The position numbers were made by a program. Below are positions 25,501 through 31,500 of a DNA stretch of 64,000 bases, piece by piece; positions within the stretch are counted from its first letter, which is position 1, and every line of letters begins with the position of its first letter. The stretch lies in the NCBI GenBank assembly GCA_964106915.2, contig OZ066918.1; one strand, given 5' to 3'. The stretch is from Podarcis gaigeae. Lineage: Eukaryota.

Positions 25501-28500
25501 TCGCAGCCCTTGGCTCCGTCTCTCCTTTGTTTATAACCACTACCTTTTCTTTGTGTGCATTCTTGTGGTGATGCTTGCAATTGGACTCTACCTCTTCCGT
25601 CTGCGCCGCATCCACCAGAAGCAGTTGCACGTGGCACAGCTGGACCTGCTGTGGCTAGCAGAAGTGGTCCCGCTGCCAGCACAGGAGGCAGCCTCCTGAG
25701 AAAAGAACTACCTCTCAGCGAACTCTCTCCACTGCCCTATTGGCAGTGGCTTTTAATGGGCCAGAAGCTGTGATTCTCTTGCGGGCTAGTCCAGAATTCT
25801 GCAGGACTCCAGCCCAACCCCAGGGCCTAAACAGTGTCTGCTCAGACTTGCCCCTAACCCAAGCCGCTCAACCCTAATGGACTCTAGATTTTCCTCCGTG
25901 GCTGAAATCCCCAGCCACTGTGGGAGAATCACGCTGCAGGCGCTGTGAGGCAAGGGAAGCTGATCTGTGTTACCCTTGACAGTGGGCAAAAGGCAGCATA
26001 GCTGAAAGTGACCAAAGAAACTTGATTTACTCAGGAAGGGGAGGGAGAAGGACATTGTGTGGCCAGGAACTGGACAGCTCTCCCGCAAAAGGAAAGAAAA
26101 TGGTTCTTTCTGGTGCTTTACTATGAGCACGCCCCCCCCTACTTCTGTTGATGTCTATGATAGGACCAAAAAAGGAGTCGTGCAAACAGGATTCCTTGAG
26201 GGTAAGAAATAACCTTTTTAAAAAATCAAGGCAGATATTTTGCTGCCTTCCTTCACACTCCTCCCCACAAATACATTTTGCACACACTCCTTTCAAATCC
26301 CACATTTACCCATCATTCAGTGTGTCTCAGTGCTGTTGTCCCAGCACTGGGGCTTCCAGCAGTTCCAAGTTTCACAGAAGACCACCTTGAACTGTGGAAC
26401 GCTGTCTCTGGTACTTGTTTTAACAACAACTAGCCCATAAACTCAATCAACTATGGGCTAAGTTAAATTATGAATTTGTTTTCATACTTGAACTCCAGTT
26501 ACTGTAGCAATAAATTATGCTGAACTGTGTAAGCAGAGTTTCTTGATGCTAGTTGTGCTGGAAGCTTGTTGGTTGGTGTAGCTGGTTGGTTTTACTAGCT
26601 GTAAAAACCATGATTTCTCACCTGTGCTCAAGAATGAGAACCAATCTACAATTGTAGGCCAAAGGAAAAGAACTTGCTTTATTGCTGTATGGTCCTGAAC
26701 ACAATAGGGTTACTATCATAAATCCTAGTCTGGAAATTTGCAGTGGCTTAGTTGCTTACACCACCTGGATAGTTTACTGAAGTGCTCCTTGTCAGGAAAC
26801 ACAGACCACTTTTGATTTCCCCCAATACCAATTAGATGCTATGGATAGAGGCTGGAGTATTACCCTGGCTGAATTTCAAGCACTTCTGGGCCCCATATCA
26901 GATGCCTTTAACAAAAGACAAAGAAAGCTCACATACTAAAAAAATTTATTTTCACGATAACAGTTTACACTCAATAAATACAAATACACAACATTATAAA
27001 TAATAGTGGAAGGGGGAATTCTAGGCAAATGCATCCTAGTGCAGCAGCCTCACTGCTAATGGACAACGATAGGGAGAGAACAGATCTATTGGGTGAGCAT
27101 CACCATGTAAATGTAAGGAAGGTGTCTTGTATCTTGCCCAAGAGGGTGTTCCAGAGCTCCATCAGCAATTATTCAATCTTAGCGTTCATTACAGGACTTT
27201 CAAAATGCAAACATTTTCCCTAACTGCCACAAGAGGGACATTTCGTTACAACATCAAACCCAAGAGCAGATGCCACCAAGATGCATCAGTTAAAACAAGT
27301 GGGAGATGGTTAAACAAGTGAAATGGTCCCTTCATATGTTTGGGTCTTGGCTCTACTGCTGTGGGGAAATTTAGAGTGCAAACAAAAGATCCGTTGAGTT
27401 AGTACTGGAAAGGACAAGGGGTGGAGCTGTTATCTAGCATCAGAAGGAAGCCTAGGAAAAAGAGAAAAAGATTTCTTAGTATAGACCTTACCCCAGCAGG
27501 ATAGAAGATATCTGGGAACAATCAACCTGTTGCCCTTTCAGTGAGATTTACCATAGCTACCTTTTACATACAATGAGAAAGTGACCTGTCCTATAGAACC
27601 ACAGAGTGGCAACACTATTGGAGACAGATTACAGGTACCTTTCTGGTTCTATTGGTTAAGCCAGGGATGGGACCTGTGATTCCAATGTGGCTTGACTAGG
27701 ATCCCTGACTGGCTATACTGGCTTGGGCTAATAGGAGTCAGAATCCAATAATATCTAGAGAACCATAAGTTCCCCATCCCTGGGCTATGCCATTGACAGG
27801 TGAGTCGGGTAAGGAACCCAGGATGGGAATCTTTGTAAACTGGAAGCAAGCAGATTCCTTGTTCTTACAAGCTATTAATGAGTTGCATCTAATGTATTTG
27901 TGTTAGTAAGGTAGGTTAGGTAGCGCTGGATAGAGAAAGTACCTGTTGAATTGGTTGATAGTGGTGCAGTTCACTCCCACAGGAAGCGCACATACCAGAT
28001 GGTCTCATTCTTCAGCTGGGGTCCAAACAGTGGGTTGGCCTGGGCCAGGAGTGCTATAAGCCAGCTGCAAGGGAAAGATAGGAAGGAGACATATAAACTG
28101 GATCACAACTCCTGCACTAGTGCTGAAATACAAAAAGTCATATTTTGCAAGTAACTGCTAGGTCATTTTTGCAAGTAACGGTTATTCTTATAAAGAGGAC
28201 AGTGTCACTGTAGGAGGGATATACAATCTAGGGAGCAAGGTCTTCTAGTTCTTTAAATGTACTACAAGGAGATAAGATCTGCCCTGGTGCATTATGCCCG
28301 AGTGTGTGTAGCTTAGCATAACAGCTGAGTCAGACAGGATGTTAGGGCAGCTAGAACAGTCTAGTGCTTTGGTGTATGACCAGAGATGGTCTAAGGTTTG
28401 TTATGGGATGCAAAATCCACTCCTTGTTCATATATGGGGTCCTGGGAGCATCATGCATGAATGATGCTAGGACATATTGGAAGAGACAGTGTACCATGAT

Positions 28501-31500
28501 CCAAGATTACCCAAAAGCTTATTTTATGAAAGAGAGGCAGGCTGTTTATGCACCTATGTGTAGAATAAGGACCTGGCAACTGTGAAGCAACTTGAGCATC
28601 TCCAAGGTGGTGTATACAGGAGAACTTCTTCTATTTGGGATTCCTTCCTAGATTCCCAATATTCATGAAGCAGCCACTTAGATAAAGTTATGAGGGTGGT
28701 TGGTTTCCTGCTGGGTACAACCCAGCCCTACACCCACAACCCATCTCCCCTATGCAATACTCACAAGAGATAGCAGGAAATGGCTGTAGTCACCAACATG
28801 GTAATAATTACTCTGTGAAGTGAAAAAATGAAAAAGAAAAAAGACTGAGTAAAGCTGCAAGCCTAACCCTACTTACCTGAGAGTAAACCCCACTGAATAT
28901 ATTAGGAATTACTTCTGAGTAGCCATGGATAGGATTGTGCTGTTACTGAAACAGTCAAGCAGGTCACACAGGAGAAAGGATTCCCAGATCAGGCACTCCT
29001 CAACGCTCTTTCTCCCTGCTCCCACACCCGGACCCCTATATACCATGTTCATAAGAGAAAAATACCCTAGCCCAGCCCTTTGGCTGCTATACTAGTTTGC
29101 TATTTGCAGGGTCGCTGGTGTTTCCAACGCGAGGTAGCACTCATAAATGTGATTCGCCCCCACTTGGCAGTCTGAAGCGATGCAAAGTCCCCTGTTCACA
29201 GCATCCGTGGATCAGGCCTCCTTCAAGGCCAAAGGCGGCTGCGGAGAAGGAAAGCCTGCGAGTGTCGCACTTGCGGGGGAAGCGGGTGCTGGTCCCTGCT
29301 AAAGATTTTGTGTGTGTCATGTCATCTCCCAATATATCAATATCTCTATATAGTGATCTTTTTGGATATATAGGTCATTCTCACATATCTATCTATCATC
29401 TATCTATCTATCTATCTATCTGTAAATCAATCTGTCAATCAATCATCTATCTAGATATAGATATTCTCAAAGCCTTTAGCAGGGACCACCATCACCCTTC
29501 CCTCGCAATTATAGATCACAATGCATATATTGATCTATTTGGCGATGACCGAGAGACCTGGCGACGGATCGGGCGGGCGGAGGCTGCGCGGGCGGGGAGC
29601 CTCACCCGCGGTTGGGCCCCTTGGGCACGAGCCACGGCCCGGCGATTCCCACGAGCCCCCAGAAGACGGAGAAGAGGATGATCGGCAGCGCGAAGCTGTG
29701 CGCCGTCATAGCGAGGCAGGTTGGGAGCGACTGACGGGATGAAGGACAAGAAGCCGCCGCCGCCGAGACCGCAAGAAGAGTGAGTCTCCGCTCCTCCCCC
29801 TGTCTCTTCCTTCGCTTCTGGTCCGGTCCGCAACCAATCAGAACTCCGTGCGCGCCCCCCGGTGTTTTTCCCCCTTCGCCACCCCGTATTTTGGAGCCTC
29901 GGTTCCGAATGGAGCTGCCTGTGTCATACCGCCCCCTGCTGCCTCGGAGGGTGTATTGCGAGGAGCGGAGAAGGCAGGTCGAATCTTACTAGAGCTGTTG
30001 CAGGCATGGGCATCGTATAGGCGTCCACTGGGGTTGGGGTAATTGCTCCCTCTAATGAGCCATGATCACCAGATTTACAGGTTTCTACTCCCCACCCCCC
30101 GCTCTACAGAAAGGTTATAAAATTTGTAGACCCAGATATGAACAAAAATGTGCAGGCACCAATCTTCACCTCTATTTTGTGAGAAAACTTACCCCTCCAA
30201 CCTTTCATGGTTTCTATCCATTTTAGACCACTACTTAAAATATACAAAAAATCCTCTAAGTGGTGTACAGAAAACAAGCTGATCAGAAAATTTTACGAAT
30301 ATGATGTTATGTATAAAAATGTTGCATTACTGCAACATAACTAATACATAGAAACCAGTATCAGTTCCTTCTCCTTCTGACACCCATCCCCTCTCAGTAT
30401 CCGGGCTCTCAAAAAGCGCATTCATTGGTTTCTAGCTAATGAATGAAGCAATGGATGACATTAAGGAAACTAGATCTAGCCAATTTAATACTTGAGTGAA
30501 ACACCTGTGTCTCCGCTCTTGGGTTTGGTTTAAAACCTTTTATGCTGGTCTTCACTGCTGGTGAAGTGAATGCTACCCCACTGAAAACAATTCAGGTATC
30601 CAATACTGGCAAGTAATGTATAAAAGAAAAATGTAGCAGCAAAGACAGTAAGTAGTCCATCATCTTTCAAAGTCACATTTCATAGCAACCCCCCCCCCCG
30701 CCCCCACATCTGCAAACACTTTAAAAGATACTCTGCTGACAACCTGCCATAATTATACCAATATTGAAGCAGGCTGGGCTGGGGCTGATTTCATGTTAGG
30801 CTCATTTTGCCGAGAGGCAGCGGTAGGGAACTGCAGTAGTGTAGTACAACTCTGAATTGTAGGGTACATGATAGGGCTTTTTAGGGAAATGAAGCAAAGT
30901 GGGAGTGTGAAGTTGAGTTCGGGAAAGAATTAAGGGCTTCAGCAATGAGTGAAAAGCCATCTACCCATTGTAGCAGGTCAACCCACTGAGAAGGAAAGGG
31001 ATAAATATGTAATACAAGTTTCTCAGGGTTCTACCCAAGTCTAGGAAGTCACCTGATCCACCAGAATTGTTAGCTATGTTCTCTGCTGCTAGTTATGTTT
31101 ATTTACTCATTTGCAACATTTACTCTCCCCCTCCCCTCCCCAGAAAAAATCCTTTGTGGATATTGATGTTAATGAAACGTGTTCCAAATCAACCCACTCA
31201 TGTGCCTGCTTGAAAGCTGCCACAGGCATCTGGTTGGCCACTGAGAACAGGATGATGGACTTGATGGGGCCTTTGGTTTGCTGCAGCAGAGTTTCTTATG
31301 AAGGTACATTGCATAGGGACATTGTAAGAACAGTCAGTTTTAAAATACTGAGAAATATTGAGAAACTTTTTTTATTAAATAAGGAAAGGATTGTGGGTCT
31401 TCTGCATGGTTAAATTACAGTGCACATTTCAATATTCTAATGCAAACAATTGCACTCAAAAAATTGCACTCAAACCCCATTCTGCTAAAGAAAATCCACA

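What the first reader, a model, noticed from the sequence alone, without database searches (positions are those of the whole stretch)
26945..29800. Hidden gene: ATP6V0E2 between ENTPD7 and COX15, missed by the ORF track
Seen: three small minus-strand exons (104, 48 and 94 coding nt) with canonical splice sites join into an intact 81-aa V-ATPase e subunit. It has two TM segments, the PKGPN and [12 protein letters not shown] motifs, its own CpG island, a 3'UTR exon and a polyA signal. Known (from memory): human ENTPD7 and COX15 are direct neighbours and human ATP6V0E2 is on 7q36. Inference: this is a functional intron-containing gene, not a retrocopy, at a position not used in human.
Basis: partly seen in the sequence, partly recalled or inferred. 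Interest (0 to 1): 0.75.

Follow-up and report, generated by a model that had tools for sequence, protein, structure and literature searches.

The report
Lizard V-ATPase e2 gene, already annotated
The three small exons are a real, intact gene for the e2 subunit of the vacuolar proton pump in a lacertid lizard, but the gene is already annotated in related lizards and its place beside NKX2-3, ENTPD7 and COX15 is already in print, so it is ordinary.

Summary
Three minus-strand coding exons of 104, 48 and 94 nt have GT-AG borders, a CpG island, a spliced 3'UTR exon and an AATAAA signal, all at the stated coordinates.

Searched exon by exon, exons 1 and 3 match the Pfam V-ATPase e-subunit profile in order. 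Both score higher against solved e2 chains than e1 chains.

All three exon pieces are 100% identical to the 81-aa RefSeq "V-type proton ATPase subunit e 2" of Podarcis muralis and Lacerta agilis, and to the Podarcis lilfordi protein. The window is therefore from a lacertid lizard, not human, and the gene is not hidden.

Family-level gene order is NK2 homeobox, mitoferrin-like carrier, ENTPD4/7-like, e2, COX15, CUTC, ABCC-like. A sparrow model joins a COX15 exon to e2 exon 3. Three rodent models fuse e2 to ZNF862/SSPO/LRRC61-type proteins.

A 2025 paper lists atp6v0e1/2 among the paralogous neighbours of the NK4 loci. The lizard site is thus probably ancestral and the mammalian site derived.

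Expression was not testable. The joined 81-aa model was not searched. Interest is low.

The parts
29401..30000 (.). CpG island and likely promoter of the e2 gene. By eye it holds a GC box near 29936-29929 and an inverted CCAAT (ATTGG) at 29838-29834.
   Evidence: CpG o/e is 0.9-1.0 and GC 0.47-0.68 in three 200-bp bins. Motifs were read and are consensus-level only.
29606..29709 (-). Exon 1, coding part (104 nt, 34 codons plus 2 nt).
   Evidence: Pfam PF05493 positions 1-26 of 62, 24.3 bits. 62.6 bits to e2 chain 6vq6_e against 39.7 to e1 chain 6wlw_S. 34/34 identical to P0108.
28813..29605 (-). Intron 1 (793 nt, GT..AG, phase 2). It holds a (TATC)n microsatellite at 29386-29453.
28765..28812 (-). 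Exon 2 (48 nt: 1 nt, 15 codons, 2 nt).
   Evidence: At 15 residues it is too short for any database search on its own. tblastn of P0003 maps residues 133-147 here at 100%. 15/15 identical to P0108.
28065..28764 (-). Intron 2 (700 nt, GT..AG, phase 2).
27943..28064 (-). Exon 3: 1 nt plus 30 codons plus TGA (27973-27971), then 28 nt of 3'UTR up to a GT donor.
   Evidence: Pfam PF05493 positions 44-62 of 62, 21.7 bits. 58.7 bits to e2 chains against 49.5 to e1 chains. 30/30 identical to P0108.
27452..27942 (-). Intron 3, inside the 3'UTR (491 nt, GT..AG). The junction lies 28 nt after the stop codon.
   Evidence: Sequence features only; no transcript data.
26925..27451 (-). Exon 4, 3'UTR. The end is approximate, about 20 nt past the AATAAA.
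   Evidence: Acceptor context is. The tail of the Rhineura floridana isoform X1 model (P0010 residues 76-103) maps to 27219-27136 at 71% with a stop codon in the window. The stretch is therefore exonic in a relative's model and non-coding here.
26945..26950 (-). Polyadenylation signal AATAAA.
   Evidence: It is the only minus-strand AATAAA between 26800 and 31097.
20376..25699 (+). Neighbour: GDA1_CD39-family gene (ENTPD4/7 type, ENTPD7 by synteny), coding exons seen. It converges on e2.
   Evidence: 7 of 8 ORF pieces hit PF01150 in profile order 6 to 415. The last ORF ends at 25696, followed by a stop. Plus-strand AATAAA at 26509 and 26973.
31929..37222 (-). Neighbour: COX15, upstream of e2 on the same strand.
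   Evidence: 5 of 9 ORF pieces hit PF02628 in profile order 21 to 321. Candidate polyA signals at 31376, 31103 and 30489.

Best explanation
This is the lizard orthologue of ATP6V0E2. It encodes the 81-residue e2 subunit of the membrane (V0) sector of the vacuolar H+-ATPase.

Gene structure: it is an ordinary four-exon gene with three coding exons. It runs from its own CpG-island promoter just downstream of COX15 to a polyA site that abuts the 3' end of ENTPD7.

Protein: a two-helix membrane hairpin with a short luminal tail that carries an N-x-T sequon. [quoted passage not shown] Its luminal part, together with subunit a, contacts synaptophysin on synaptic vesicles.

Position: beside NKX2-3, SLC25A28 and ENTPD7. 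This mirrors ATP6V0E1 beside NKX2-5. It is most likely the site e2 has held since the vertebrate genome duplications, with mammals having moved the gene.

Basis of each step:
- Shown here: gene structure, identity with annotated lacertid e2, the e2-over-e1 preference, and the neighbours at family level.
- Inferred: expression, incorporation into the pump, and the direction of the move.
For: Structure: canonical junctions, ATG, stop, AATAAA and CpG island.

Family: exons 1 and 3 hit PF05493 at profile positions 1-26 and 44-62 of 62. Of 10 ORFs on both strands of the finding's span, only the one holding exon 1 hit anything.

Isoform:
- Exon 1 scores 62.6/62.1/57.9 bits to three e2 chains, against 39.7/36.8 to the e1 chain 6wlw_S and the chain 7u8o_e (named only 'V-type proton ATPase subunit').
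- Exon 3 scores 58.7/58.7/53.2 against 49.5/49.5.
- 75 of 77 candidates passed in the exon-1 search. Of these 75, 14 carry no usable name, and none of the other 61 is named e1.
- 63 of 68 candidates passed in the exon-3 search, again with no e1 name.

Already annotated: the pieces are 34/34, 15/15 and 30/30 identical to P0108. P0108 is the RefSeq e2 of Podarcis muralis/Lacerta agilis, with four XP accessions listed. The matches fall at its residues 1-34, 36-50 and 52-81. The same holds for the last 81 residues of the P. lilfordi protein.

Orthology gradient, given as exon 1 of 34 / exon 2 of 15 / exon 3 of 30:
- other squamates with a full-length e2: 29-31 / 13-14 / 26-29
- Rhineura X1, an alternative-tail model: 32 / 15 / 22
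- guineafowl: 29 / 13 / 28
- echidna: 27 / 12 / 28
- marmot: 27 / 11 / 28
- sawfish, sturgeon, stickleback: 21-22 / 9-12 / 25-26

Intron positions shared: read-through or alternative models break exactly after residue 35 (alligator P0036) and after residue 50 (turtle P0064, mouse species P0063).

Position:
- Window order was established by Pfam.
- Sparrow model P0078 joins COX15 exon 5 (maps to 34516-34364, 92%) to e2 exon 3 (28069-27974, 97%).
- Rodent models fuse e2 behind ZNF862 (Marmota P0096), or with KRAB/hAT/SCO-spondin/LRR domains (Microtus P0104, Scotinomys P0105).

Literature:
- The NK4 microsynteny legend lists slc25a28/37, entpd4/7 and atp6v0e1/2 (PMC12019251, section 6 read).
- Chicken GGA13 holds ATP6V0E1, CREBRF, BNIP1, NKX2-5 (PMC12108394, passages).
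- e2 in the brain pump and at the synaptophysin interface (PMC7414150 and PMC11269182, passages).
Against: - No transcript evidence of any kind was available, so splicing, the 3'UTR exon and expression are predictions.
- Each exon piece alone falls just under Pfam's 25-bit cut-off (24.3 and 21.7). The whole protein was not scored because the joined step was left out.
- Exon 2 could only be compared by local alignment to proteins found through the other exons.
- The names ENTPD7, SLC25A28 and NKX2-3 rest on family plus synteny, not on an orthology test.
- The 2025 legend names the atp6v0e1/2 family. It does not say in words which locus holds e2, and I saw neither the figure nor its supplement.
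- No tree with e1 sequences was built.
- No outgroup position (amphibian, fish) was seen, so which site is ancestral is inferred from the paralogy pattern.
Confidence: 0.93

Rival explanations
1. Hidden paralogy. The sauropsid gene beside COX15 and the mammalian gene beside ZNF862 would be different duplicates from the vertebrate genome duplications, each lost in the other lineage. The lizard gene would then be a third e isoform rather than the orthologue of mammalian e2.
For: The two groups sit in different neighbourhoods. No tree was built. Short proteins carry little signal.
Against: Lizard pieces are closer to monotreme and rodent e2 (27/34, 11-12/15, 28/30) than to sawfish, sturgeon or stickleback e2 (21-22/34, 9-12/15, 25-26/30). 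Ancient duplicates would show the opposite. The exon borders are the same in alligator, turtle and a mouse species. The human 7q36.1 site is not one of the four NK4 paralogous loci described in PMC12019251.
Confidence: 0.04
2. A lineage-specific extra copy. The true e2 orthologue would lie elsewhere in the lizard genome, and this would be a DNA-level duplicate dropped between ENTPD7 and COX15.
For: The rest of the genome could not be searched.
Against: A passerine bird model joins a COX15 exon to e2 exon 3, so the tandem COX15-then-e2 arrangement is at least as old as the bird-lizard split. In both exon searches the only Podarcis entry shown among representatives was P0003. The lacertid RefSeq protein P0108 is the same sequence as the exon pieces.
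Confidence: 0.02
3. An intact-looking but silent or decaying gene, that is, a young unitary pseudogene.
For: No expression data were available.
Against: The reading frame is open and all six splice sites are canonical. The CpG island is kept. The protein is identical across several lacertid genera and 85-95% identical across squamates, which indicates purifying selection.
Confidence: 0.01

Closest known systems
RefSeq 'V-type proton ATPase subunit e 2' of Podarcis muralis / Lacerta agilis (P0108; four XP accessions including XP_028586442.1 and XP_033005811.1), and 'VA0E2 ATPase' of Podarcis lilfordi (P0003, CAI5775238.1)
   Same: All three exon pieces are identical to these proteins at residues 1-34, 36-50 and 52-81. 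The length is 81 residues. This is the same gene.
   Different: The P. lilfordi entry carries a 97-residue N-terminal extension translated from the 5' leader. In the window that leader maps only at 59-81% with frame changes. The window is therefore a close relative, not that record. The extension looks like an annotation artefact.
Mammalian ATP6V0E2, subunit e2 of the brain V-ATPase (solved chains 6vq6_e, 6xbw_e, 8xli_e)
   Same: 81 residues. 28 of 34 and 28 of 30 residues are identical in exons 1 and 3, counted from the alignments. The PKGPN and [12 protein letters not shown] motifs and the C-terminal end are the same. The exon borders are the same.
   Different: The neighbourhood differs. 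In rodent gene models and in lists of human genes, e2 lies with SSPO, ZNF862 and LRRC61. Here it lies between ENTPD7 and COX15.
ATP6V0E1, subunit e1 (solved chain 6wlw_S)
   Same: Same family, same length, same hairpin. Exon 3 is nearly as similar (49.5 bits). e1 lies beside NKX2-5 in chicken, the paralogous counterpart of the site seen here.
   Different: Exon 1 scores much lower (39.7 against 62.6 bits; 19 of 34 identical, counted). The last six residues differ.
Yeast Vma9p, the fungal subunit e (recalled, not tested here)
   Same: A small two-helix V0 subunit of the same Pfam family, needed for pump assembly in yeast (recalled).
   Different: A distant sequence with no isoforms.

Membership tests
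V-ATPase subunit e (Pfam PF05493, ATP_synt_H) | Significant match to the family profile over its length | tested here: inconclusive
   Exon 1 scores 24.3 bits (E 4.4e-05, profile 1-26 of 62). Exon 3 scores 21.7 bits (E 2.9e-04, profile 44-62 of 62). The hits are collinear, but each is just under the 25-bit cut-off because it is only part of the domain. The whole protein was not scored because the joined step was left out.
V-ATPase subunit e (Pfam PF05493, ATP_synt_H) | Close sequence match to subunit e chains seen in solved V-ATPase structures | tested here: met
   E = 5.6e-17 (exon 1) and 6.8e-16 (exon 3) to chain 6vq6_e. All 5 distinct sequences found are V-ATPase e subunits.
V-ATPase subunit e (Pfam PF05493, ATP_synt_H) | About 80 residues forming two hydrophobic helices joined by the PKGPN turn | tested here: met
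   81 codons, counted. Hydropathy peaks fall in exon 1 and across exons 2-3. PKGPN is present. No fold was predicted.
e2 isoform (ATP6V0E2 orthologues) | Closer to e2 than to e1 in every part that can be scored | tested here: met
   62.6 against 39.7 bits (exon 1) and 58.7 against 49.5 bits (exon 3). No hit with a name is called e1. No tree was built.
e2 isoform (ATP6V0E2 orthologues) | Same exon borders as e2 genes of other amniotes | tested here: met
   Models that read through or splice differently diverge after residue 35 (alligator P0036) and after residue 50 (turtle P0064, Mus spicilegus P0063). These are the positions of the window's two coding introns. The evidence is indirect, since it comes from proteins and not from their DNA.
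e2 isoform (ATP6V0E2 orthologues) | Transcribed, spliced as modelled, and built into the V0 sector | not testable with these tools
   No RNA-seq, proteome or genome of this species was on hand.
Processed retrocopy (considered and rejected) | No introns, a poly(A) remnant, and no promoter of its own | tested here: not met
   Three GT-AG introns of 793, 700 and 491 nt, plus a CpG island at the 5' end.

The most novel reading that the evidence does not exclude
e2 arose beside the NKX2-3 / SLC25A28 / ENTPD7 / COX15 block as the genome-duplication twin of e1 beside NKX2-5. Lizards and birds keep that site. The mammalian lineage lifted the intact gene, introns included, into the SSPO-ZNF862-LRRC61 neighbourhood.

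The move itself, its timing (before or after monotremes split off) and its mechanism are not described in any paper my searches found. Searches found none, and the five papers listed, judged from their titles and abstract starts only, are not about e2 gene order. Only the shared paralogy is in print.
Probability: 0.7. Interest if true: 0.2.

Novelty: already known. Interest (0 to 1): 0.08.

Why it matters
It matters little. The gene is a housekeeping-type pump subunit that public annotation already carries for lacertid and many other squamate genomes.

The finding does show that a scan based on long open frames is blind to genes made of very small exons. It also shows that careful reading can recover them exactly.

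There is one small comparative point. The lizard and bird position of e2 is the mirror of e1 beside NKX2-5, while mammals hold e2 elsewhere. That is a tidy example of a single gene leaving an otherwise conserved block. A synteny browser could settle it in minutes.

Tried and rejected
- The ten longest stop-to-stop ORFs of the window gave one weak Pfam hit (CutC) and nothing else. Long ORFs here are mostly GC-rich noise, so I turned to reading exon-sized ORFs.
- Whole-frame translations with stop codons are not accepted by the Pfam tool.
- The 34-residue exon-1 peptide is under the 40-residue minimum of the large protein search. I sent the unaltered genomic stop-to-stop ORFs that hold exon 1 (127 aa, scored over residues 88-127) and exon 3 (43 aa) instead.
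- Exon 2 (15 residues) is too short for every search tool, so it was only aligned locally.
- Nine other ORFs on both strands of the finding's span, including a 208-residue antisense ORF over exon 1, hit no Pfam family.
- Rfam found nothing in the whole window, so no snoRNA or miRNA sits in the introns.
- Literature searches for ATP6V0E2 with COX15 and ENTPD7 and with nkx2.3 found no paper. The search with 'synten' listed five papers that, by title and abstract start, do not concern e2 gene order; I did not open them.
- Retrocopy and antisense-gene readings were rejected.
- Not used: structure prediction, complex prediction, the representative-protein search, the protein atlas, and the prokaryote genome collection. 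None of them bears on the question.

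
Full report
**What is in the sequence**

- An ATG at 29709 opens 104 coding bases that end at a GTGAGG donor.
- A 48-base exon (28812-28765) follows a long pyrimidine tract and ends at a GTGAGT donor.
- A third exon starts at 28064. It carries 94 coding bases up to TGA (27973-27971) and runs 28 bases further to a GT donor at 27942.
- A fourth exon starts at 27451.
- AATAAA lies at 26950-26945, with a T/GT-rich stretch after it.
- The introns are 793, 700 and 491 bases.

The 600 bases around the first exon are a CpG island. Observed/expected is 0.9-1.0, against 0-0.35 in the rest of 26001-29000.

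Translated one by one, the exons give 34, 15 and 30 residues. The two codons split by the introns read as glycine and phenylalanine, so the count is 81.

Hydropathy fits two membrane helices, one in exon 1 and one across exons 2-3.

The window has one run of N (53552-53766), far from the finding. I left it alone.

**How the model was searched**

The joined 81-residue sequence was not made, searched, folded or put in a tree. Exon 2 is too short for any search tool and was only compared by local alignment.

**What it is**

Exons 1 and 3 hit the Pfam family of V-ATPase subunit e (PF05493) at profile positions 1-26 and 44-62 of 62. The gap between them is the size of exon 2. Each piece scores just under the 25-bit cut-off because it is a fragment (24.3 and 21.7 bits).

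Against all solved structures, both pieces find only V-ATPase e subunits and prefer e2.
- Exon 1: 62.6 bits to e2 against 39.7 to e1.
- Exon 3: 58.7 bits to e2 against 49.5 to e1.

In the large protein set I used the unaltered genomic ORFs that contain exon 1 and exon 3.
- 75 of 77 candidates passed for exon 1, and 63 of 68 for exon 3.
- No named hit is called e1.

The best hit is 'VA0E2 ATPase' of Podarcis lilfordi. Its last 81 residues map back on the window as three blocks, each 100% identical, at 29709-29605, 28811-28767 and 28063-27974.

The cluster around the Tiliqua e2 protein holds 29 squamate sequences. One is an 81-residue RefSeq protein shared by Podarcis muralis and Lacerta agilis. 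The window's pieces match it 34/34, 15/15 and 30/30, at residues 1-34, 36-50 and 52-81.

So the window comes from a lacertid lizard. I do not take it for human. The gene is already in public annotation.

The 5' leader differs from the P. lilfordi record, at 59-81% with frame changes. The window is therefore a close relative rather than that record.

Identity falls off with phylogenetic distance: other squamates, then bird, monotreme, rodent, and finally fishes. This is what orthology predicts.

Mis-spliced or alternative models from alligator, turtle and a mouse species diverge exactly at the two coding intron positions. The gene structure is therefore shared across amniotes.

**Surroundings**

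Exon-sized ORFs and Pfam give this order:
- an NK2-type homeobox gene (+, 1-2743)
- a mitoferrin-like mitochondrial carrier (-, 9.2-12.9 kb)
- a GDA1_CD39 gene (+, 20.4-25.7 kb)
- e2 (-)
- COX15 (-, 37.2-31.9 kb)
- CUTC (+, from 39.3 kb)
- an ABCC-type transporter (+, 51.6 kb to the end)

A paper on the human 10q24 locus lists SLC25A28, ENTPD7, COX15, CUTC and ABCC2 together, and NKX2-3 next to SLC25A28 (PMC8522836, passages). The window is therefore the lizard counterpart of that block with e2 added. The names NKX2-3, SLC25A28 and ENTPD7 rest on this synteny, not on an orthology test.

e2 starts 0.5-1.4 kb downstream of the candidate COX15 polyA signals. It ends within about 400 bases of a candidate ENTPD7 polyA signal, or overlaps one.

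Nothing else is coded in the span. Nine other ORFs on both strands hit no family, and Rfam finds no RNA family in the window.

**Position in other animals**

- A white-throated sparrow model (P0078) consists of a COX15 exon joined to e2 exon 3. That is only possible if the two genes lie in tandem as here.
- Three rodent models fuse e2 behind ZNF862 or with KRAB, hAT, SCO-spondin and LRR domains.
- A paper listing the genes of human 7q36.1 gives SSPO, ZNF862, ATP6V0E2-AS1, ATP6V0E2, ACTR3C, LRRC61 (PMC8606216, passages).
- In chicken, ATP6V0E1 lies with CREBRF, BNIP1 and NKX2-5 (PMC12108394, passages).
- A 2025 study of the NK4 homeobox loci lists slc25a28/37, entpd4/7 and atp6v0e1/2 among the paralogous neighbours of nkx2.3, nkx2.6/7, nkx2.5 and nkx2.5l. 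It derives these from one ancestral locus by two genome duplications (PMC12019251, section 6 and the legend of Fig. 1A read).

I could see neither that figure nor its supplementary table. That e2 is the member at the nkx2.3 locus is therefore my reading, supported by this window.

Taken together, the lizard position is most likely ancestral and the mammalian one derived. I found no paper that describes the move itself. Searches found none, and the five papers listed by one search are, by title and abstract start, unrelated.

**How it works**

From established knowledge of the pump and the passages read:
- Subunit e is a small two-helix protein of the proton-translocating V0 sector.
- On mouse synaptic vesicles, e2 is the isoform present. 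Its luminal part, with subunit a, contacts synaptophysin (PMC11269182, passages).
- The lizard protein keeps the PKGPN turn, the luminal [12 protein letters not shown] block with its N-x-T sequon, and the e2-type C-terminus.

I therefore expect the same role. That the asparagine is glycosylated is recalled, not checked.

**Limits**

- No transcript data, no genome of the species and no eukaryote genome collection were available.
- No tree with e1 was built.
They would not bear on this question.

**Verdict**

The gene is ordinary and already known.

Noticed in passing
window 1-2743 (+), 9204-12880 (-), 39335-43214 (+), 51600-64000 (+): The window holds a whole conserved block: an NK2-type homeobox gene (TN-like motif in the first ORF, homeodomain 72.8 bits), a mitoferrin-like carrier, CUTC, and the first part of an ABCC-type transporter. 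A GC-rich stretch at 12-14 kb lies between the divergent carrier and ENTPD7-like genes and looks like a shared promoter.
   Followed up: partly
P0078 (Zonotrichia albicollis model); maps to window 34516-34364 and 28069-27974: A 90-residue bird database entry is a chimera of a COX15 exon and the last coding exon of e2. It is either a read-through transcript or a model error. Either way it shows the tandem COX15-then-e2 arrangement in a passerine.
   Followed up: partly
P0096, P0104, P0105 (Marmota, Microtus, Scotinomys models): Rodent gene models fuse a complete e2 to ZNF862-like or SCO-spondin/LRRC61-like proteins. This suggests read-through or model merging at the mammalian e2 site.
   Followed up: no
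P0003 (Podarcis lilfordi, 178 aa); window 29710-30013 (-): The P. lilfordi entry starts 97 residues upstream of the conserved methionine, in sequence that is 5' leader in other species. In the window that stretch has frame changes and a stop, so the extension is probably an annotation artefact.
   Followed up: partly
window 27136-27219 (-): A block of the 3'UTR exon is conserved with the worm lizard Rhineura floridana. There, an alternative model (isoform X1) reads it as a coding tail after a donor inside exon 3 (TG|GTATGT, about 27995 in the window). In the window the same frame has a stop.
   Followed up: partly
window 26509-26514 and 26973-26978 (+): There are two candidate polyA signals for the ENTPD7-like gene. 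The second lies beyond the e2 polyA signal, so the two convergent transcripts could overlap tail to tail by a few tens of bases.
   Followed up: no
window 29386-29453: A (TATC)n microsatellite, 17.5 copies, sits in e2 intron 1.
   Followed up: no
window 16200-16850 (+): Similar peptide strings recur three to four times in the ORF list. This suggests repeated units of roughly 100-150 bases inside an ENTPD7 intron. Tandem Repeats Finder at score 60 did not report them.
   Followed up: no
window 53552-53766: A run of 215 N lies inside the ABCC-like gene region. It was left untouched.
   Followed up: no
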